The notes beneath the pieces are model-generated. The model had not been told where the DNA came from, did not search any database, and saw only the letters and a list, made by a program, of their open reading frames with translations. Shown piece by piece: positions 3,644-26,400 of a stretch of 64,000 bases of DNA (the first letter of the stretch is position 1; each line of letters opens with the position of its first letter). The DNA is from Clostridia bacterium (lineage in GTDB: Bacteria > Bacillota > Clostridia > Oscillospirales > CAG-272). The position numbers and the translations under genes were made by a program. The DNA is taken from contig JAFTQV010000057.1 in the NCBI GenBank assembly GCA_017462605.1, positions 662-64,661 on the forward strand, in the 5' to 3' direction.

Positions 3644-6469
3644 ATGTCAAGAAATATAGTCATAAAAGGCGCAAAAGTTAATAATCTTAAAAATATTGAC
3701 GTTACTATACCGAGAGACAAGCTCGTCGTACTGACGGGGCTTTCGGGAAGCGGAAAGTCATCGCTCGCGTTTGACACTCTCTATGCCGAGGGGCATAGGC
3801 GCTTCGTTGAGAGCCTTTCAAGCTATGCGAGAATGTTTATAGGTCAGATGGATAAGCCCGAGGTAGATCTTATCGAGGGGCTTTCTCCCGCGATATCGAT
3901 AGATCAGAAGACAACCTCGAAGAACCCGAGATCCACGGTAGGAACGGTAACCGAGATATACGACTATCTCCGTCTGCTTTACGCAAGAGTAGGTCATCCG
4001 CACTGCCCGGTATGCGGTAAGGAGATCACTCAGCAGACGCAGGATCAGATAGTGGATAGAATATTATCGCTCCCCGAGGGGGAAAGAATAGCAGTGCTGT
4101 CTCCTGTTGTCAAAGCGGAGAAGGGAAGGCATGAAAAGGTATTTGAGGCGGCGAGAAAAAGCGGCTTCGCCCGTGTCCGCGTGGACGGAAATATGTACTC
4201 GCTCGACGAGGAGATAACGCTTGATAAAAATAAAAAGCATACAATAGATATAGTTGTAGATAGACTTGTCATCAAGCCCGATATAACCTCGCGCCTTTCG
4301 GATTCCGTTGAGAGCGCGCTTAAGGCATCGGGCGGTAAGGTTACCGTTGTGACAGTTCCCCGTGAGGGCGAGGGTAAAGAGCTTGAATTCTCGCAGAAGT
4401 ATATGTGCGAGGAGCATGGAATAAGCTTCCCGGAGCTTGAGCCGAGAATGTTCTCCTTCAATAACCCTATCGGCGCGTGCCCCGAATGCGCGGGCATTGG
4501 AAATATGCAGAGAATATCCGTCCGCAAGCTTATTCCTCATCCCGAGCTTTCACTCAGAGAAGGAGGCATAGCCGCAAACGGATTTAAGTCTATGACCGAG
4601 GATTCCTGGACGGGTCCCGTGCTTGCCGCGGTCGGCAAGGATTACGGCTTTGACCTTGATACTCCTCTTAAGGAGTATTCAGAGCGCGCCATGGACGTGC
4701 TTATGTACGGAACGAGAGACGGCAAGAAATACAACGTTATCCGCTATTTCGGCGGCGAAGGCAGAGAGCAGAACGCAACCTTTGACGGTATAGTCAATAT
4801 AATCGAAAGACGAATGAAGATGGCAGGCGGAGACTATTATCAGGAGTTCGTTGAAGAGGTCGCGTGCCCGAGATGCCGCGGAAGAAGGCTTTCAGATCTT
4901 GTTTTAGCGGTGACGGTAGGCGGACTCAATATAGATGAATTCTGCTCTATGACGGTCTCTCGCGCGCTTGATTTCGTGGAAAAAATAGAATTTACCGATT
5001 CCGAGGCAACGATAGCCAAGGAAGTCATAAAGGAAGTCAGATCGAGGCTCAACTTCTTGAAGAGTGTAGGACTTGATTATCTGAACCTCAGCCGTACTGC
5101 GGGAACTCTTTCGGGCGGCGAGGCGCAGAGAATAAGGCTTGCCACCCAGATCGGTTCATCGCTGACGGGAGTTCTTTATATCCTTGACGAGCCGAGCATA
5201 GGTCTTCACCAAAGAGATAACGGTAAGCTTATCGGTACTCTTAAAAATCTTCGTGATCTTGGCAACAGCGTGATAGTCGTTGAGCATGACGAGGAGACGA
5301 TGAGGGAGTCCGATTATATAGTGGATATCGGACCCGGAGCGGGTATTCACGGCGGTGAGGTGGTTGCCGTCGGCACACCCGATGAGGTCGCCGCATGCCA
5401 TAGATCGGTGACGGGAGATTATCTTTCGGGCAGAAGAGTTATTGAAGTGCCTAAGACGAGAAGACCCGGCAACGGCAAATTCCTTCGTATTATAGGCGCA
5501 GAGGAGAATAACCTTAAGAAAATTGACGTTGATATACCTCTCGGCTGCTTTATCGCCGTCACGGGAGTATCGGGCAGCGGTAAGTCATCGCTCGTCAACG
5601 CCGTTCTGTACAGAACCCTCGCCAGAGACCTCAACCGCGCGATAACGTATCCGGGTAAGGTCGAGCGCATAGAAGGGCTCTCGGAGCTTGATAAGGTCAT
5701 AGCGATAGATCAGAGCCCGATCGGAAGAACTCCGAGATCAAACCCGGCAACCTATACGGGACTCTTTACCGATATCAGAACTCTTTTCGCCAAAACCAAG
5801 GACGCCAAGGCGAAGGGCTACGAGGCAGGCAGATTTTCCTTCAATATCAAGGGCGGCAGATGCGAGGCTTGCGAGGGAGACGGAGTCAAATGCATTGAGA
5901 TGAACTTCCTGCCCGACGTTTACGTCAAGTGCGACGTGTGCCGCGGAAAGAGATACAACAGAGATACCCTTGAGGTCAAATACAAGGGAAAGAATATTTA
6001 TGACGTGCTTGAAATGTCGGTTGAAGAGGGCATAACCTTTTTTGACGGTATACCGCAGATACAAAGAAAGCTTCAGACACTCTTTGACGTCGGACTCGGC
6101 TATATAAAGATCGGTCAGTCCTCAACCACGCTTTCGGGTGGAGAGGCGCAGAGAGTCAAGCTTGCAACAGAGCTTTCAAAGCGCTCCACCGGCAAAACGG
6201 TGTATATTCTTGACGAGCCCACCACAGGACTTCATACCGAGGACGTCTCAAAGCTGATAGCAATACTTCAAAGACTTGCGGACGGCGGCAATACGGTAAT
6301 AGCGATAGAGCATAATCTTGATCTTATCAAGACGGCAGATCATATTATCGACCTCGGTCCTGAGGGCGGAGAGGGCGGCGGAACAGTCGTTGCCTCGGGA
6401 ACCCCAGAGCAGGTCGCAAAATGCGAAAGATCCTATACGGGAAAATTCCTTCGCGAAAAGCTAATATGA
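3644..6469 (+). CDS. uvrA: excinuclease ABC subunit A
   Basis: 941 aa. Two ABC ATPase modules (GLSGSGKSS and GVSGSGKSS, two LSGGE signatures), zinc-finger CxxC pairs. Confidence 0.97.
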   Translation: MSRNIVIKGAKVNNLKNIDVTIPRDKLVVLTGLSGSGKSSLAFDTLYAEGHRRFVESLSSYARMFIGQMDKPEVDLIEGLSPAISIDQKTTSKNPRSTVGTVTEIYDYLRLLYARVGHPHCPVCGKEITQQTQDQIVDRILSLPEGERIAVLSPVVKAEKGRHEKVFEAARKSGFARVRVDGNMYSLDEEITLDKNKKHTIDIVVDRLVIKPDITSRLSDSVESALKASGGKVTVVTVPREGEGKELEFSQKYMCEEHGISFPELEPRMFSFNNPIGACPECAGIGNMQRISVRKLIPHPELSLREGGIAANGFKSMTEDSWTGPVLAAVGKDYGFDLDTPLKEYSERAMDVLMYGTRDGKKYNVIRYFGGEGREQNATFDGIVNIIERRMKMAGGDYYQEFVEEVACPRCRGRRLSDLVLAVTVGGLNIDEFCSMTVSRALDFVEKIEFTDSEATIAKEVIKEVRSRLNFLKSVGLDYLNLSRTAGTLSGGEAQRIRLATQIGSSLTGVLYILDEPSIGLHQRDNGKLIGTLKNLRDLGNSVIVVEHDEETMRESDYIVDIGPGAGIHGGEVVAVGTPDEVAACHRSVTGDYLSGRRVIEVPKTRRPGNGKFLRIIGAEENNLKKIDVDIPLGCFIAVTGVSGSGKSSLVNAVLYRTLARDLNRAITYPGKVERIEGLSELDKVIAIDQSPIGRTPRSNPATYTGLFTDIRTLFAKTKDAKAKGYEAGRFSFNIKGGRCEACEGDGVKCIEMNFLPDVYVKCDVCRGKRYNRDTLEVKYKGKNIYDVLEMSVEEGITFFDGIPQIQRKLQTLFDVGLGYIKIGQSSTTLSGGEAQRVKLATELSKRSTGKTVYILDEPTTGLHTEDVSKLIAILQRLADGGNTVIAIEHNLDLIKTADHIIDLGPEGGEGGGTVVASGTPEQVAKCERSYTGKFLREKLI

Positions 6470-21501: not shown

Positions 21502-21513
21502 TTTGATAACTTG

Positions 21514-21722
21514 GCGGCAGAAATGCATTTATGCGTCTGCGGCGGGGGAAGCATAGGAATTTATAGAGCTTTGCAGACAGCCTTCCTATGTGCAGCCTTG
21601 TACACAACTGTTAAGAACCACCAATTGCATTGGAGGTTCTAAACAGGTGTTTAAGCCTTTTTCTGCCGCTTCGTTTTAAGAGGCTGTTTCAAATGTATTT
21701 GCATTTGCGCAGCCTCTTTTTT
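21514..21722 (+). ncRNA. candidate structured RNA immediately upstream of the reverse transcriptase (RT-associated ncRNA or cis-regulatory leader)
   Basis: 10/10-bp closing helix 21514-21523/21660-21669. Internal hairpins 21552-59/21583-90 and 21614-25/21629-40. Terminator-like hairpin 21678-86/21710-18 plus T6 abutting the RT SD. Boundaries and transcription are not verified. Confidence 0.45.
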
Positions 21723-21731
21723 GGAGGATTT

Positions 21732-22952
21732 ATGAGTATTCTTGATAAAATATCCGATAAAAATTGCTGGTTGGATTTTCTCGAATATAAAAGAAGCTCG
21801 GGGCATTTTTTTGAGTCTGAAGAAAAAGATCTTGCGGAATATATAGATAATGAAGATTATCTTCCCGTGGCTGAGGCTATTGCTTTGGAAAAGCCCTTTC
21901 CCTTACCTTTACTTCGGGAGATTAATAAAAAAGGAACGGATAAGAAGCGCAGGGTATTTGTTTTTCCCAGGAGAGAGAACTACATTTTAAAGCTGATAGC
22001 ATATCTTTTACATAGCTATGATGCGCTCTTTGCTCCGAATCTCTATTCCTTCAGGCGCGGAATAGGAGTAAAGCAAGCTGTGTATCATATTGTATCCCGC
22101 CCGGGCATAGAGTCTGCTTATACGTATAAGGTCGATATCAGCGACTATTTCAATTCGGTGGATACCGAGGCTGTTATAAGCGTACTCGAAGAATCGATTT
22201 GTGACGATAAGCGTCTTGTCAGCTTTATTTCGGGAATACTCAGAGAACCGCGCGCAAGGTTTGAAGGGGGTATAGTTGAGGTCAGAAAGGGAATAATGGC
22301 GGGCGTGCCATTTTCGGGATTTCTCGCGAATTTATTTCTTAAGGATCTCGATGAATATTTTTTTGGGAATAACATTCTTTACGCAAGGTATTCGGATGAT
22401 ATCATAGTCTTTTCAAGAAGTAAGGAGCAAATATCGGAGTGCGAGCGAAAAATAAAAGAAACGCTTGAAGCCAAAATGCTGAAGGTAAACGAAAAGAAAG
22501 AATTTAGGACAAGCCCCGGTGAAAAATGGGAATTTCTCGGCTTTTCGGTAAGCGGAAAGGAAATAGATATCTCCGAGGTCTCCTTTGAGAAGATAAAAGC
22601 AAAGATGCGGAGAAAGGCAAGGTCGCTTCTCAGGTGGAAGGAAAGAAAAGCCGCCTCAGACAAGGGAGCGGTGAAAACCTTTATCAGGCATTTTAACCGC
22701 AAAATGTATGATAATCCGAGCCTGCATGACGTAACGTGGGCGCTATGGTATTTTCCTGTTATCAACACTTCAAAAACGCTGAAGGCGATAGATGAATATG
22801 CTGTCTCGAGCGCGAGATTTATCGCATCGGGCAACCATTCGAAGAAGTCTTATTCACTTCGCTATGATACCCTTAAGGAGTGGGGATATAGAAATCTCGT
22901 CAACTCGTTTTATAAATTCAAAGAAGGGAAGCCTCTCTTCGATGATGAGTGA
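21732..22952 (+). CDS. free-standing reverse transcriptase, group-II-intron-like (RT plus thumb/maturase-like region, no endonuclease domain)
   Basis: Start set to ATG 21732 (MSILDK) behind GGAGGA 21723-28. RT blocks: KKRRVFVFPRRENYILKLIAYLL (RT1/2), SFRRGIGVKQAV, VDISDYFNSVD (RT3), GVPFSGFLANLFLKDLD (RT4), YARYSDDIIVF (RT5, YxDD), LKVNEKKE (RT6), WEFLGFSV (RT7), then a ~130-aa X/thumb-like tail. Confidence 0.9.
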   Translation: MSILDKISDKNCWLDFLEYKRSSGHFFESEEKDLAEYIDNEDYLPVAEAIALEKPFPLPLLREINKKGTDKKRRVFVFPRRENYILKLIAYLLHSYDALFAPNLYSFRRGIGVKQAVYHIVSRPGIESAYTYKVDISDYFNSVDTEAVISVLEESICDDKRLVSFISGILREPRARFEGGIVEVRKGIMAGVPFSGFLANLFLKDLDEYFFGNNILYARYSDDIIVFSRSKEQISECERKIKETLEAKMLKVNEKKEFRTSPGEKWEFLGFSVSGKEIDISEVSFEKIKAKMRRKARSLLRWKERKAASDKGAVKTFIRHFNRKMYDNPSLHDVTWALWYFPVINTSKTLKAIDEYAVSSARFIASGNHSKKSYSLRYDTLKEWGYRNLVNSFYKFKEGKPLFDDE

Positions 22953-23121
22953 ACGACCTTTTTAGTCGTTAAAGCCTTGGATTTTAGTGCAAAATTACAA
23001 TATTTGAGCCTCTTTTTTTGGAAGGTTTACATAATTTTTTGCTTAATGTTATCTTTGTTCAAAATGTAGAAAAAATAACTTGAATTTTGTTAATATCTAA
23101 CAAGAGACAGCATAAATATCA

Positions 23122-23197
23122 AAAATCGCGATTTTGGGATAGTTCGGGTAAATTATATTTACCGATAGGTTAAACAATCCCTGAAAATCGCGATTTT
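23122..23197. promoter_or_regulatory. pair of identical 14-bp perfect palindromes (putative operator pair)
   Basis: AAAATCGCGATTTT at 23122-23135 and again at 23184-23197, 62 bp apart. A GGTAAAT/ATTTACC hairpin lies between them. Confidence 0.4.
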
Positions 23198-23350
23198 TAA
23201 TGATAAAATGTTGAATTTAATTTACTTTCGTCTTTTTTAACAAAAAATAGGAAATCAATTTTTTTGCCTAAAAATTGAAAAACAGAAAAAAACGCGCGCT
23301 TTGGCAAAAGGTAATTGAAAAGGGTACCCTTTTGGCGGCAAATTCCTTTC

Positions 23351-23379
23351 TTGACTTTTCTTTTATATTATGTTATAAT
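23351..23379 (+). promoter_or_regulatory. sigma-A-type promoter of the carbohydrate ABC locus
   Basis: TTGACT 23351-23356, 17-nt spacer, extended -10 TGtTATAAT (TATAAT 23374-23379). Confidence 0.6.
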
Positions 23380-23446
23380 TTTTTTATCAATATGCCCGAA
23401 TTATGTTTACGCGGGTAATAATGAATTATTTGGAGGAAAAGAATTC

Positions 23447-26400
23447 ATGAAGAAGCCATTGTTTCAGAGAGTGATGTGTTTCATTCTTTCTGTTGCAACC
23501 TTGCTTGGTGCGGGTGGATTCACGGTAGCTGCGGGCGATCTTAAGCCTGATACTACCGCGGCAACGCTGGATGAAATGAAAGCCGTTGTCGGAACGACCA
23601 CCTACGCCGAGTACATCGCAGGCTACAAGGATGCTAAGCCCGGCAAGGGTGTTATCCAGCTTAGCAACGATCGAGTCAGCGGTGCCGTTAAGGTAACGGA
23701 GAGTGAGCAATGCAAGGATGCCAACATCACCGAAAGAGAAGACTACGATTTTGAAAATCATCAGAACGCAGTTTATCTTTCCGCTACCAGTAAAGCGACC
23801 TGGACGTTCGACGTTGCGGACGATGAGATCGGTCTTTACTACATCAAGGTCGTGTACTATAACTGCGATACAAGAGACAGCAGTATCAGTACCATTCAGC
23901 GTAAGCTCTACCTTGACGATAAGATCCCCTTCTCCGAGGCGGGAAGCCTTCAGTTCCAGAAGTATTGGGTAACCAATAATGCTGAAACCGTTGTCACCGA
24001 TACAGATGAAGAGGATAAGGTGTTCGATCCGAGATACGAGACGAGAGCTGACGGATACTACAAGGTATACAGCTACGTCAAGGACGGAAAGAAGTACGAG
24101 ACGACCTATAAGATATCTCAGGATATCAACGGCAACTCGATGGCGCCCGAGCTTGTTCAAAGCTCCGCTTGGCATACATATTACTGCCAGGACTCCACGG
24201 GCTATGAGCACGGATACTTCATGTTCCACATACTCAACGGTAATTCTCACACTCTTACTCTCGAGGCAGAGAGAGAGGATATGATAGTTGAGTCTATCGA
24301 GCTTATTCCCGTTGATACCTCCGTTGTTGATATTCCTTCTTATGAGGATGTCAAGGCAGAGTACGAGGCAAACGGATATAAGCCTGCTGAGGGCGGAAAT
24401 ATCTACGTTATCGAGGCAGAGTTCCCCGATGCGGTATCCGATTCTTCGGTATACGCTACCAACGATAATACCTCTGCTGCAAACTTCCCCTCTACCTCTA
24501 AGGCTCAGCTTTACAACGTAATAGGTGAGAATAGCTATAATACGGTAGGTCAGTGGGCGGCATATAAATTCCGCGTTTCCAAGGACGGACTTTACAACAT
24601 TTCGATGAGATATAAGCAGAGCGCCCTTCAGGGTATGTACGTCTGCCGAGCCGTTAAGCTTTCGGGCGGTAAGTACGGTCTTTCGGACGGAACTCCCACA
24701 GCTCCCTTCCAGGAGGCATACAACGCGCGCTTTGATTATAATAAGGAATGGCAGTCAAACTATCTTTCGGACGGAAGCGGAGAAGCTTTCCAGTTCTATT
24801 TTGAAGAGGGCGTTGAATATACGATCTATCTTGAATGCTCGCTCGGATCGCTAAAGGAGCTTATCCAGCGGGTCGAGGTTTCGCTTGACAAGATCAACGA
24901 GTGCTACCTTAAGATACTTCAGCTCACAGGTAACGATCCCGATGAATACCGTGACTATAAGTTCGATGAGATCATGCCCGACGTTCTTTACGAGTTCCTC
25001 GTCCAGGCGGAGAACCTTGAAAATGTCAAGAATGAGTTCGTTGAGCTTTGCGGAACAACAGGATCTCACGTCACTACTCTTCACACGATAGCGCTCCTTC
25101 TCGATAGAATGGGCTCGAATTACGGTGATGACGTTGCGGCTAATATGAGTACTCTTAAGTCCTACCTCGGTACGCTCGGTACGTGGATCAACAATTCCAA
25201 GACGAGCCCCATGGTGGTGGACAGCCTTACTGTTGCTCCTTCGGACAGCGGAAAAGCAGGTCTCAAGAGAGCGACACCCAACTTCTTCGTTTCGATAGGC
25301 TTTGAGATCGCATCCTTCTTCTGGTCATTCTTCACCGAGTACGATCAGATGGGTCTTACAAGAGTTCCCGATGCTGATTCCAAGAAGATTGACGTATGGC
25401 TTGCTACCGGTCGTGACCAGTCTCAGATCTGGCGCGGACTTATAGACGCTAAGGATGGATTTACAGATAGAACGGGCGTTGCGGTAACGCTTAAGCTCGT
25501 CACGGGAGGAACACTTCTTCCCTCAGTCCTTTCGGGTAAAGGTCCCGACGTATATATGGGACTTGGCTCAACGGACGTTATTAACTACGCGATAAGAGAT
25601 GCCGTTTATGCTGTAAGCGGCAATGAAAAGAGCTTCACAGAAGAGCAGAACAAGATTTTTTCTTCCAATTATTATACATATATTGAGGACGGCAAGTACG
25701 TCACCTCAACTGTCGCTCCCGAAAACTATACGGGAAGCGGAACCTACGTAGAAAACAGTAAGACTCTTACATTCGAGGAGGTTCTCGGAGCAGAGGACGA
25801 TCCCAACTACGTAAAGGCTGCGCTTGATACCCTTCAGCTTCAGGGAATGACCTTCGGTATTCCTCAGACGATGTCGTTTGCGATGATGTTCTACAGAATG
25901 GACGTTCTCGCAGAGCTTGGTCAGGAGGTTCCCGAGTCATGGGGCGAGCTTCTTGCGCTCCTTCCCGTTCTCCAGACCAACAATATGTCGATAGGTGTCA
26001 ACTACATTTCCGCGATCGACTTCATGATTTATCAGAAGGGCGGTAATATGTGGAAGTATCCTGACGATCCCGATTATCAGGGCGCAAAGATCGACCTTGA
26101 TTCGGACGTTGCGCTTGAGGCGTTCGACTACGTCTGCAGACTTTACAGCGACTACTCCTTCCCCGTAAGCTACGATGCGGCAAACCGTTTCAGAACCGGT
26201 GAGATGCCTATCATCATAGGCGACTACGCATCTATCTATAACCAGCTCGTCGTTTATGCGACTGAGATCGCAGGTCTTTGGGAGTTTACTTCGCTCCCCG
26301 GCTCGTTCAGAGAGGACGGAAGCTTCAACTACAACTCTCTTGCAGGTATCGGCGCAACCGTAATGCTTAACGGATGCAAGGATATCCTCAGCTCATGGCA

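What the first reader, a model, noticed from the sequence alone, without database searches (positions are those of the whole stretch)
21732..22952. Orphan group-II-intron-like reverse transcriptase with no intron, no effector and no CRISPR/DGR/retron partners
The 406-aa protein has all RT blocks, including YSDD, and a maturase/thumb-like tail (FIRHFNRKMY...WALWYFP...). It has no endonuclease domain and carries a ~90-aa N-terminal extension (KNCWLDFLEYKRSSGHF...). It is not inside an intron: only 230 nt separate it from zupT, there is no GUGYG 5' end, and no domain V-like GAGCCGUAU...ACGGUUC sequence lies downstream. Retron signatures (VTG in RT7, NAxxH) and the DGR SQ motif in RT4 are absent. 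No Cas1, Avd or recognisable retron effector genes are adjacent. A single RT gene preceded by a structured RNA is the layout of the single-gene defence RTs (DRT2/UG2, DRT9/UG28) and of domesticated G2L RTs. The gene also looks more AT-rich than its neighbours by eye, which hints at horizontal acquisition. I cannot assign the class from sequence alone.
Basis: partly seen in the sequence, partly recalled or inferred. Interest (0 to 1): 0.82.

Follow-up and report, generated by a model that had tools for sequence, protein, structure and literature searches.

The report
UG26 reverse transcriptase with RT-5 RNA
This is a free-standing bacterial reverse transcriptase of the catalogued but functionally unstudied UG26 class, paired with a conserved pseudoknotted small RNA (Rfam RT-5) that it most likely copies into DNA; it is a new member of a known family, not a new kind of system.

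Summary
The class can be assigned. The protein matches PADLOC's RT_UG26 profile end to end (E=1.3e-160), which places it in UG/Abi Class 2. The 230-nt upstream spacer holds an Rfam RT-5 RNA (RF03026), followed by an intrinsic terminator. No group II intron RNA, retron, DGR or CRISPR partner is present.

A covariance model found the RNA in 78 of 82 related loci, always on the RT strand and at a median of 30 nt from the RT start. Covariation supports two features outside the Rfam consensus structure: a 12-bp closing stem and a 7-bp pseudoknot. In 50 of 67 informative loci a ~173-aa COG2852-like accessory gene precedes the RNA. The window lacks it.

The locus is syntenic with a Ruminococcus MAG across 10 flanking genes, which are housekeeping genes. 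The family is absent from the phage, plasmid and viral collections. Recent horizontal transfer and a defence-island setting are therefore not supported.

Mechanism is inferred, not shown. The RNA probably serves as scaffold and template for cDNA synthesis, as in the sister groups UG27, DRT9 and DRT10. The template could not be pinned down.

The parts
21513..21670 (+). Complete RT-5-type ncRNA, the cognate RNA of UG26 RTs (158 nt). The Rfam RT-5 match itself covers 21531-21662.
   Evidence: Rfam RF03026, 52.7 bits against a gathering score of 45.7. Own covariance model R1, 84.4 bits, E=2.5e-22. MFE -60.2 kcal/mol, z=-3.87.
21513..21523 (+). P0 closing stem, 5' strand (GGCGGCAGAAA). It pairs with 21660-21670.
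   Evidence: Across 75 distinct RNAs, 11 of 12 pairs show compensatory changes and 96.6% of cells are paired.
21524..21535 (+). Small basal hairpin Pa (UGCAUUUAUGCG). Its GC...GC core is nearly invariant, and other loci have longer versions of the hairpin.
   Evidence: Alignment A4: GCAGG-UCAUC-CCUGC in L042, GCC-UUCG-GGC in L039, ACAAG...CUUGU in L080. The two core pairs are 99% paired.
21535..21541 (+). Pseudoknot 5' strand (GUCUGCG). It pairs with the P1 apical loop at 21572-21578 (UGCAGAC).
   Evidence: 6 of 7 pairs show compensatory changes and 98.8% of cells are paired. The pseudoknot was not part of the model used to make the alignment.
21542..21601 (+). P1 composite hairpin. It has a variable asymmetric internal loop, and its apical loop (21572-21578) forms the pseudoknot. 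It ends at the invariant GU (21600-21601).
   Evidence: 10 of 13 lower pairs and 4 of 4 upper pairs covary. GU is 100% conserved.
21602..21649 (+). P2 hairpin. It is variable in sequence and length, and at 45 nt is unusually long here (family median 17-18 nt).
   Evidence: 6 of 6 pairs covary. Lengths. Fold.
21650..21659 (+). Conserved single-stranded junction UUUAAGCCUU between P2 and P0. U21650, U21651, A21653 and A21654 are 85-100% conserved. It is the best candidate site for initiation or templating.
   Evidence: Conservation. Junction length is nearly constant at 9-12 nt. Excess of direct repeats is weak: 3.46 against 3.24 in cross-locus permutations.
21660..21670 (+). P0 closing stem, 3' strand (UUUCUGCCGCU).
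21678..21722 (+). Intrinsic terminator between the RNA and the RT gene: stem AAGAGGCUG.../...CAGCCUCUU followed by a U run.
   Evidence: -23.3 kcal/mol, z=-4.34. 48 of 71 family RNAs have a U-rich tract directly after P0, or a further hairpin followed by a U run.
21723..21727 (+). Ribosome-binding site GGAGG, 4 nt before the ATG.
   Evidence: Read directly from the sequence.
21732..22952 (+). UG26-class reverse transcriptase, 406 aa. N-terminal helical extension (1-~60), fingers/palm with YSDD (220-223), thumb, and a C-terminal helical tail with conserved tyrosines.
   Evidence: PADLOC RT_UG26, E=1.3e-160, profile positions 1-397 of 398. Pfam RVT_1. AF2 pLDDT 91.1, pTM 0.86. D135, YSDD, K256, W336 and Y378 are invariant in 82 of 82 family RTs.

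Best explanation
The locus is a two-part member of the UG26 class of UG/Abi Class 2 reverse transcriptases: a ~160-nt structured non-coding RNA (Rfam RT-5) followed by the RT gene.

Shown here:
- The RT is a full-length, catalytically intact UG26 protein.
- The RNA is its family-wide partner.
- The RNA folds as a closing stem P0, a basal mini-hairpin, an H-type pseudoknot between the 5' segment and the P1 apical loop, a variable hairpin P2, and a conserved single-stranded UUnAA junction.

Inferred:
- The RNA is made as a discrete small transcript that mostly ends at the terminator at 21678-21722. Read-through then yields small amounts of RT mRNA.
- The RT binds this RNA and uses part of it as the template for cDNA synthesis. 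P0 and the pseudoknot would act as scaffold.
- Synthesis probably starts in the conserved junction just 3' of P2. From there it either copies the variable P2 hairpin into a short discrete ssDNA, as in the nearest sister group UG27, or copies the junction repeatedly into a short tandem repeat, as in DRT10 and DRT9.
- Priming by a hydroxyl residue of the RT itself is plausible, as in DRT9 and DRT10. Y378 is invariant and there is a Tyr-rich C-terminal tail.
- The cDNA, not a partner protein, would be the active product here, because this copy lacks the accessory gene that most family members carry.

The biological role is open. It may be phage defence or a housekeeping nucleic-acid function.
For: Identity:
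- PADLOC RT_UG26, E=1.3e-160 over the whole profile. The next best profiles are UG27 (3e-31) and UG17 (2e-30).
- A UG27 RT has UG26 as its second-best profile.
- YSDD and the other catalytic residues are invariant in 82 of 82 RTs.

RNA partnership:
- RT-5 was found at Rfam's gathering score in 19 of 20 loci scanned.
- Model R1 found it in 78 of 82 loci, always on the RT strand and once per locus. The median gap to the RT start is 30 nt.

Structure:
- 93.6% of cells are paired, against 72% in shuffles and 39-47% in slid controls.
- P0 has compensatory changes at 11 of 12 pairs, and the pseudoknot at 6 of 7.

Separate transcript:
- A -10-like box lies within 22 nt upstream of P0 in 29 of 71 RNAs, against a background of 10.7%. 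A U-rich tract follows P0 in 48 of 71.
- The window has a strong terminator.
- In three loci the RNA lies about 4 kb from the RT, with genes on the opposite strand in between.

Template role, by analogy:
- DRT2, DRT9 and DRT10 all copy their ncRNA (bioRxiv 10.1101/2025.10.16.682844; PMC12483538).
- UG27 also has a YSDD active site and ~150-nt pseudoknotted RNA units. It copies a variable hairpin bracketed by short conserved motifs into ssDNA of 50-100 nt (bioRxiv 10.64898/2026.09.22.753630).
- In RT-5, P2 is the variable hairpin. It is bracketed by the invariant GU and the conserved UUnAA.
Against: - There is no direct evidence of cDNA, RNA expression or RT-RNA binding.
- The template could not be identified. 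The unpaired regions hold no conserved U-tract. There is no never-ending ORF and no preference for lengths that are multiples of 3. The P1 internal loop has no excess of direct repeats. The P2-P0 junction has only a weak excess.
- P2 is only about 18 nt in most family members, which is short for a UG27-type product.
- UG27 needs two accessory proteins to make cDNA. Most UG26 loci have an accessory gene that this window lacks, so this copy could be impaired or could work differently.
- Four related RT loci have no RT-5 RNA within 5 kb.
- The RT-5 model finds nothing in a UG27 locus, so the two RNAs are not detectably homologous.
Confidence: 0.62

Rival explanations
1. The RT is a domesticated housekeeping enzyme, in the way G2L4-type group-II-like RTs act in DNA repair. 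On this view the upstream RNA is mainly a cis-regulatory leader or attenuator that controls RT expression, not a template.
For: The fold is close to G2L4 (TM 0.67) and GsI-IIC (TM 0.70). The gene is chromosomal and syntenic across diverged genomes. Its neighbours are housekeeping genes: among 149 nearest neighbours there are few PADLOC defence hits, all to generic or candidate families, and no integrase, transposase or other MGE family is among the 25 commonest Pfam families. The family is absent from phage, plasmid and viral collections. The RNA and terminator sit directly in front of the RT start codon.
Against: A pseudoknotted, 130-160-nt multi-helix RNA conserved over RTs only 40-60% identical is far more elaborate than an attenuator. 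In three loci it is about 4 kb from the RT, with opposite-strand genes between, so it cannot be a leader there. By profile the RT belongs to UG/Abi Class 2, not to G2L. All characterised Class 2 members use their RNA as the template.
Confidence: 0.17
2. The locus works like a retron. P0 would play the part of the a1/a2 duplex. A guanosine just 3' of the P0 5' strand (the invariant G of the YGC motif) would prime from its 2'-OH. The RT would then copy from the P2-P0 junction inwards to make a branched RNA-DNA molecule.
For: A closing stem joins the 5' and 3' ends of the RNA, and a nearly invariant G follows at the second position after it. The conserved junction lies directly 5' of the P0 3' strand, which is where msd synthesis would start.
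Against: The RT fails the retron profiles: NCBIfam retron_St85_RT scores 73 bits against a cut-off of 235, and the PADLOC retron RT profiles score far below UG26. The retron motifs VTG and NAxxH are absent. No retron effector is adjacent. The invariant GC...GC is explained by the small hairpin Pa.
Confidence: 0.06
3. It is a mobile or decayed group II intron ORF (RT/maturase).
For: The fold is group-II-like and the tail resembles a thumb/X domain. The best NCBIfam hit is group_II_RT_mat. One relative is named 'group II intron reverse transcriptase domain-containing protein' by its source.
Against: The TIGR04416 score is 106 bits against a cut-off of 300. No intron RNA family is found, even at E<=10. 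There is no GUGYG and no domain V. The gene is flanked on its 5' side by a different, conserved RNA in 78 loci. There is one copy per locus, at a syntenic site.
Confidence: 0.02
4. This particular copy is a degenerating remnant of a three-part UG26 system that has lost its accessory gene and no longer works.
For: 50 of 67 informative loci have the accessory gene and the window does not. The window's RNA scores lower than most (84 bits against up to 129) and has an expanded P2. Both UG27 accessory proteins are needed for cDNA synthesis.
Against: Every family-invariant residue is intact in the window's RT. The ortholog in L001 also lacks the accessory gene, yet it keeps an intact RT and RNA at 59% identity, so the pair has been maintained without it for a long time. 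Accessory-less loci fall into about nine clades, all with intact RTs. All helices of the window's RNA are preserved.
Confidence: 0.1

Closest known systems
UG26 (UG/Abi Class 2 reverse transcriptases; Mestre et al. 2022, PMC9226505)
   Same: The window's RT matches the UG26 profile over its full length. It is a ~400-aa RT with no fused domain. The family is sometimes accompanied by a COG2852/YcjD-like protein (PADLOC RTasCOG2852).
   Different: The 2022 description had 35 members, the accessory gene in 9 of 35, no ncRNA, and an 'inconclusive' defence prediction. Here the family has about 265 clusters at 50% identity and an RT-5 ncRNA in 78 of 82 loci. The accessory gene is present in 50 of 67 loci. 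The window's copy lacks it.
RT-5 RNA motif (Rfam RF03026; Weinberg et al. 2017, PMC5737381)
   Same: The window's RNA matches the whole model above the gathering score. The motif was defined by its location next to RT genes.
   Different: The Rfam consensus structure printed by cmscan covers only P1 and P2 and has no closing stem; a covariance model cannot represent a pseudoknot, so whether Rfam's seed or the 2017 paper annotates one could not be checked. This analysis adds a 12-bp closing stem P0, a basal mini-hairpin and a 7-bp pseudoknot, all supported by covariation. It also ties the motif specifically to UG26 RTs. The 2017 paper speculated about retrons or DGRs. No paper in the searchable library mentions RT-5 by name.
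UG27 RT systems of gut phages (bioRxiv 10.64898/2026.09.22.753630)
   Same: UG26 and UG27 are each other's nearest PADLOC profile. Both have a YSDD active site. Both have a structured RNA of about 130-170 nt with a basal hairpin, a pseudoknot, and a variable hairpin bracketed by short conserved motifs.
   Different: UG27 is phage-borne, has arrays of many RNA units, and needs two accessory proteins (sORF and bORF). UG26 is chromosomal, has one RNA per locus, and has a different, optional accessory protein. The RT-5 model finds nothing in a UG27 locus.
DRT10 (UG17) and DRT9 (UG28)
   Same: These are Class 2 RT-ncRNA systems that make repetitive cDNA from a short template in a loop just 3' of a stable stem-loop, with protein priming. 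DRT9 is the closest solved DRT structure (TM 0.61-0.63) and is likewise RT plus ncRNA only.
   Different: UG26 loci have no SLATT gene among the recurrent neighbours. Unpaired regions hold no conserved poly-U tract. An A-B-A' repeat is at best weakly supported in one junction. The UG17 and Drt9 profiles match only part of the protein, at E of 1e-24 to 1e-30.
Group II intron RTs and G2L RTs (GsI-IIC, G2L4)
   Same: They are the best structural matches over the whole chain, TM 0.67-0.72. They share the RT0-like N-terminal extension and a thumb.
   Different: There is no intron RNA. The protein scores below the group II equivalog cut-off. Identity is 15-19%. It has a dedicated non-intron RNA partner.

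Membership tests
UG26 (UG/Abi Class 2 RT) | Full-length, best-scoring match to the UG26 RT profile | tested here: met
   PADLOC RT_UG26, E=1.3e-160, 532 bits, residues 1-398 on profile positions 1-397 of 398. The next UG profile scores 3e-31.
UG26 (UG/Abi Class 2 RT) | Stand-alone RT with no fused known domain (the Class 2 definition) and an intact YxDD catalytic site | tested here: met
   Pfam finds only RVT_1. YSDD is at 220-223 and is invariant in 82 of 82 relatives.
UG26 (UG/Abi Class 2 RT) | Placement inside the UG26 clade of a reference RT phylogeny | not tested
   No reference tree or reference sequence set was available. The assignment rests on profile scores only.
UG26 (UG/Abi Class 2 RT) | Co-located COG2852/YcjD-like accessory protein (optional: 9 of 35 in Mestre 2022) | tested here: not met
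   tblastn with 35 accessory proteins found no hit anywhere in the 64-kb window at E<=1e-4. The ZIP-family gene ends 11 nt before the RNA. The accessory gene is present in 50 of 67 informative family loci.
RT-5 RNA (Rfam RF03026) | Covariance-model score at or above the curated gathering score, over the whole model | tested here: met
   52.7 bits against 45.7, model positions 1-104 of 104.
RT-5 RNA (Rfam RF03026) | Location next to a reverse transcriptase gene | tested here: met
   The extended RNA (P0 3' strand) ends at 21670, 61 nt before the RT start at 21732, on the same strand; the Rfam RT-5 match itself ends at 21662.
Mobile group II intron | Intron RNA domains (5' GUGYG, domains I-VI, domain V) flanking the ORF | tested here: not met
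   No Rfam intron family is found, even at E<=10. No GUGYG or domain V-like string is present.
Mobile group II intron | RT/maturase reaching the TIGR04416 equivalog cut-off | tested here: not met
   106 bits against a cut-off of 300.
Retron | Retron-type RT (profile match; VTG and NAxxH motifs) | tested here: not met
   retron_St85_RT scores 73 bits against a cut-off of 235. The motifs are absent.
Retron | msr/msd RNA with an a1/a2 duplex and a branching G that primes msDNA | not testable with these tools
   The closing stem P0 and an adjacent invariant G exist. Branching can only be shown biochemically.
Diversity-generating retroelement | TR/VR repeat pair with adenine-specific differences; Avd; SQ motif in RT4 | tested here: not met
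   The window holds no second copy of the RNA region and no A-variable copy. There is no SQ motif.
DRT2 (UG2) | Rolling-circle template that encodes a stop-free, never-ending ORF | tested here: not met
   The length enclosed by P0 is uniform modulo 3 (25, 23 and 24 RNAs). No RNA whose length is not a multiple of 3 is open in all frames. NCBIfam Drt2 scores 65 bits against a cut-off of 390.
DRT9 (UG28) | Universally conserved poly-uridine template tract in the ncRNA | tested here: not met
   Runs of 5 or more U are absent from the P1-P2 junction, the P2 loop and the P2-P0 junction, and occur in only 2-3 of 72 RNAs in the Pa linker and the P1 internal loop. The Drt9 profile gives only a partial match at 1e-24.
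DRT10 (UG17) | A-B-A' repeat template just 3' of a stable stem-loop; SLATT effector | tested here: inconclusive
   The P2-P0 junction lies directly 3' of hairpin P2 and shows UUU...UUU. The excess over cross-locus permutation is small: 3.46 against 3.24. The P1 loop shows none. No SLATT-like recurrent neighbour was found.
UG27 system | Array of several ncRNA units plus sORF and bORF accessory proteins, carried by phages | tested here: not met
   There is one RNA per locus. The accessory protein is different. No relatives occur in the viral or phage collections.

The most novel reading that the evidence does not exclude
UG26 with RT-5 may be a chromosomally fixed, vertically inherited RT-RNA particle. 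Its pseudoknotted RNA (closing stem, then pseudoknot, then hairpin, then conserved single-stranded junction) would direct a mode of cDNA synthesis not yet described. One possibility is a short A/T-rich tandem repeat, or a mini-hairpin DNA, started at the conserved UUnAA junction. It might serve a non-defence cellular role in gut and rumen Clostridia. That would make it a bacterial housekeeping counterpart of the DRT10/telomerase-type enzymes.
Probability: 0.25. Interest if true: 0.8.

Novelty: new member of a known kind. Interest (0 to 1): 0.45.

Why it matters
Each Class 2 UG reverse transcriptase studied so far has shown an unexpected way of making DNA. DRT2 synthesises a gene, DRT9 makes poly-dA, DRT10 makes telomerase-like repeats, and UG27 makes short hairpin cDNAs. 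UG26 has not been studied experimentally.

This analysis adds four things. It links UG26 to a defined RNA, Rfam RT-5. It extends that RNA's structure with a closing stem and a pseudoknot. It shows that the usual system has three parts, while a two-part form persists stably in some lineages. It also shows that the family sits among housekeeping genes and not in defence islands or mobile elements.

Together these results give a compact construct of about 1.5 kb to test. They also raise the question of whether every such RT serves in defence.

Tried and rejected
1. Group II intron. Rfam at gathering score and at E<=10 found no intron RNA, and the protein is below the equivalog cut-off. Rejected.

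2. My first reading of the linker between P0 and the pseudoknot was a telomerase/DRT10-like A-B-A' direct repeat. The 78-sequence alignment showed it to be an inverted repeat, a small hairpin. Withdrawn.

3. DRT2-like never-ending ORF. The length shows no constraint modulo 3, and no RNA whose length is not a multiple of 3 has an open circular frame. Linear open frames are more frequent than in shuffles, 53-56 of 72 against 33-38. I attribute that to related sequences and the clustering of stop triplets, not to coding.

4. DRT9-like U-tract. Absent.

5. A-B-A' repeat in the P1 internal loop. No excess.

6. DGR-like or target-matching second copy of the RNA in the window. None.

7. Recent horizontal transfer or a mobile element. 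Rejected on synteny with L001, housekeeping neighbours, and no family members in IMG/VR, INPHARED or PLSDB.

8. Homology between RT-5 and the UG27 RNA. Model R1 finds nothing in a UG27 locus. Only one locus was tested.

9. Function of the accessory protein. No Pfam, NCBIfam or PDB sequence hit. No invariant acidic residue.

10. A 794-aa ORF abutting the RT in three loci looked like a possible partner. It is an HD-GYP membrane protein specific to one sublineage. The equal-length ORF downstream is unrelated.

11. The single genome-contig scan returned only one locus, because the peptide patterns taken from a single sequence were too specific.

12. The supplement of Weinberg 2017 is not held, so I could not check whether a pseudoknot was already drawn for RT-5.
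Full report
OBSERVATION. The ORF at 21732-22952 (+) exists and encodes 406 aa. The motifs VTG, NAxxH and SQ, and CxxC-type endonuclease motifs, are absent. Pfam sees only RVT_1, residues 64-272, so the N-terminal extension is about 60 aa, not about 90. The upstream gene is a ZIP zinc transporter, and the spacer is exactly 230 nt. Rfam detects no group II intron family in the window, either at gathering score or within 20.5-24.5 kb at E<=10. There is no GUGYG or domain V-like string.

CLASS OF THE PROTEIN. The class can be assigned. PADLOC's RT_UG26 profile matches end to end: E=1.3e-160, 532 bits, residues 1-398 on profile positions 1-397 of 398. The next specific profiles are far weaker: UG27 3e-31, UG17 2e-30, UG4 2e-28, Drt9 1e-24. 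All curated NCBIfam models fall below their cut-offs: group II RT/maturase 106 against 300, retron St85 73 against 235, Drt2 65 against 390, Drt3a 73 against 200. A bona fide UG27 RT from a gut phage has UG26 as its second-best profile, so the two are reciprocal nearest neighbours by profile. UG26 was defined by Mestre et al. 2022 (PMC9226505). They described a Class 2 UG/Abi group of 35 members, 9 of them next to a COG2852/YcjD-like protein, with no ncRNA described and an 'inconclusive' defence prediction. An AlphaFold2 model (pLDDT 91, pTM 0.86) resembles compact group-II-type RTs most closely: GsI-IIC TM 0.70-0.72 and G2L4 0.67. DRT9 follows at 0.61-0.63. The family is large. More than 120 clusters at 90% identity are 49-67% identical to the query, and the ones that carry names are from Clostridia or Oscillospiraceae MAGs. 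About 265 clusters at 50% identity have E<=1e-30. All RT blocks, including YSDD, are invariant.

THE UPSTREAM RNA. Rfam places an RT-5 RNA (RF03026) at 21531-21662. It scores 52.7 bits against a gathering score of 45.7 and matches the whole model. RT-5 is one of the 'RT' motifs that Weinberg et al. 2017 found next to RT genes. They speculated that these belong to retrons or DGRs. In 20 related loci Rfam found RT-5 in 19. Inspection of the flanks suggested more structure than the Rfam model holds. I built a covariance model from 20 trimmed copies and searched 82 related loci. It gave 78 hits, one per locus, all on the RT strand. The median distance to the RT start is 30 nt.

On the resulting 75 distinct sequences, 93.6% of cells are paired. 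The figure is 72% in column shuffles and 39-47% when partners are slid.
- The outer stem P0 has compensatory changes at 11 of 12 pairs.
- P1 has them at 10 of 13 lower pairs and 4 of 4 upper pairs.
- P2 has them at 6 of 6 pairs.
- A 7-bp pseudoknot joins the conserved 5' GCGCCUGCG to the apical loop of P1. It has compensatory changes at 6 of 7 pairs and is 98.8% paired. It was not part of the model used for alignment, so this support is independent.

Window coordinates are: P0 21513-21523 with 21660-21670; mini-hairpin 21524-21535; pseudoknot 21535-21541 with 21572-21578; P1 21542-21601; P2 21602-21649; junction 21650-21659. The window's copy folds accordingly (z=-3.9). The conserved unpaired nucleotides are an invariant GU between P1 and P2 (21600-21601) and U-U-n-A-A in the P2-P0 junction (21650-21654).

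TRANSCRIPTION UNIT. A strong intrinsic terminator lies at 21678-21722 (-23.3 kcal/mol, z=-4.3), between the RNA and the RBS and ATG. Across the family, 48 of 71 RNAs are followed by a U-rich tract. In addition, 29 of 71 have a -10-like box within 22 nt upstream of P0, against a background of 10.7%. In three loci the RNA lies 4.1-4.4 kb from the RT, with unrelated genes on the opposite strand in between. The RNA is therefore best read as a discrete, trans-capable small RNA, with the RT expressed by read-through. This is an inference. The same arrangement is reported for DRT2 and DRT9 (PMC9226505).

NEIGHBOURHOOD. Clustering the flanking ORFs of all loci gave one recurrent partner: a ~173-aa protein directly upstream of the RNA on the same strand. 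It matches PADLOC 'RTasCOG2852', with a best E of 7e-58. It is present in 50 of 67 loci with enough flank. It is absent from 17, including the window and L001. It has no Pfam, NCBIfam or PDB sequence match and no invariant acidic residue, so it may not be an active nuclease. Accessory-less loci fall into about nine clades, and all keep the RT catalytic residues.

The window and a Ruminococcus MAG (L001, RT 59% identical) share 10 collinear flanking genes that are 40-97% identical. The RT has thus been inherited vertically at this site. The GC dip is small: 0.417 against 0.463. The window's neighbours are an Rnf-type Fe-S protein, a NusG_II protein, ApbE, a ZIP transporter and ABC permeases, and none has a real defence hit. 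Of the 149 nearest non-accessory neighbours across the family, only a handful hit PADLOC models, and all of those are generic or candidate families. The commonest Pfam families are metabolic. No family member occurs in IMG/VR, in 50,697 phage records or in 72,556 plasmid records; the best hits there are 28% identical or less and belong to other RT classes.

MECHANISM. Nothing here shows activity directly. What follows is inference from relatives. Class 2 UG RTs studied so far all copy their ncRNA.
- DRT2 does this by rolling circle.
- DRT9 copies a conserved U-tract and primes from C-terminal tyrosines (PMC12483538).
- DRT10 copies an A-B-A' template just 3' of a stem-loop and primes from a serine (bioRxiv 10.1101/2025.10.16.682844).
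- UG27, the nearest profile to UG26 and also a YSDD enzyme, copies a variable hairpin bracketed by short conserved motifs into ssDNA of 50-100 nt. It needs two accessory proteins (bioRxiv 10.64898/2026.09.22.753630).

I tested each signature on RT-5.
- There is no never-ending ORF. The length enclosed by P0 is uniform modulo 3, and no RNA whose length is not a multiple of 3 is open.
- Linear open frames show a modest excess over shuffles. Without any codon periodicity in the indels, I do not read this as coding.
- There is no conserved U-tract.
- The P1 internal loop has no excess of direct repeats: 2.92 against 2.96.
- The P2-P0 junction lies directly 3' of the stable P2 hairpin and reads UUUAA-N4-UU(U). 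It has a small excess of direct repeats (3.46 against 3.24 in cross-locus permutation) and an equally small excess of inverted repeats.

My early idea of an A-B-A' template in the P0-pseudoknot linker was wrong. That segment is a hairpin.

The most defensible model is that the RT starts in the conserved junction. It then either runs through the variable P2 hairpin, as UG27 does, or reiterates on the junction, as DRT10 and DRT9 do. P2 is 45 nt here, 39 nt in L001 and about 18 nt elsewhere. I put about 0.6 on 'the RNA is the template', and I split that between the two modes without a clear favourite.

VERDICT. It needs three corrections. The class is UG26. The RNA is the known Rfam RT-5. The locus is an old chromosomal resident and not a recent acquisition. 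It is also a reduced, accessory-less version of a system that usually has three parts. As a kind it is known, so I rate it a new member of a known kind.

Four points are new relative to the papers I could search: the UG26-RT-5 link, the closing stem and pseudoknot, the high frequency of the accessory gene, and the lack of any defence-island or mobile-element context. Function and mechanism remain unknown and can be tested with a 1.5-kb construct.

UNEXPLAINED. Four related RT loci have no RT-5 RNA within 5 kb, even with unfiltered search. The role of the accessory protein is not known. Nor is it known how the two-part form does without it.

Noticed in passing
L034:771-899, L041:805-932, L046:514-641 (RTs at about 5001); L045, L047, L055, L077: In one RT sub-clade the RT-5 RNA is unlinked from the RT. 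In three loci it lies 4.1-4.4 kb upstream, with opposite-strand GH43, LytTR and DUF7010 genes between. In four loci it is absent within 5 kb even with unfiltered search. All these RTs keep their catalytic residues.
   Followed up: partly
e.g. L036:4304-4825, L009:2837-3337, L075:4279-4809 (alignment A5): The UG26 accessory protein (PADLOC RTasCOG2852, about 173 aa) has a low-complexity N-terminal half. It has no invariant acidic residue; the only invariant or nearly invariant residues beyond the start methionine are N158, V163, R166 and a few aromatics. It has no Pfam, NCBIfam or PDB sequence match. It may be a non-catalytic Vsr-fold protein.
   Followed up: partly
window 21602-21649; L001, about 5866-5905: The P2 hairpin of the RNA is 45 nt in the window and 39 nt in L001, against a family median of 17-18 nt. 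The two differ in sequence, but both form long hairpins. This is a clade-specific expansion of the most variable helix.
   Followed up: partly
window 22953-23460: The 362-nt spacer after the RT is 27.6% GC. A near-consensus promoter (TTGACT-17-TATAAT, 23351-23379) lies inside the mechanically called 1156-aa ORF, which has a TTG start at 23315. The ATG further downstream that opens MKKPLFQRV, shortly after a GGAGG, is the likelier start.
   Followed up: no
P0207, P0223, P0191: A few family members are much longer. P0207 is 1274 aa with the UG26-like RT at residues 880-1271. P0223 is 723 aa and P0191 is 619 aa. This suggests occasional N-terminal fusions in a class defined as having none.
   Followed up: no
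L083:5830-6996 (MT835776.1, human gut phage): This RT is a clear UG27 (E=2.5e-212), with UG26 as its second-best profile (1e-35). The RT-5 model finds no related RNA in the locus.
   Followed up: yes
L037:4706-4778: A tRNA gene lies 87 nt downstream of the UG26 RT in this locus (Rfam tRNA, 66 bits).
   Followed up: no
window 21711-21722 and 23007-23018: The 12-mer GCCTCTTTTTTG, the 3' half of the terminator plus its U run, recurs just downstream of the RT stop. There it is followed by GGAAGG. This may be a second terminator remnant or chance.
   Followed up: no
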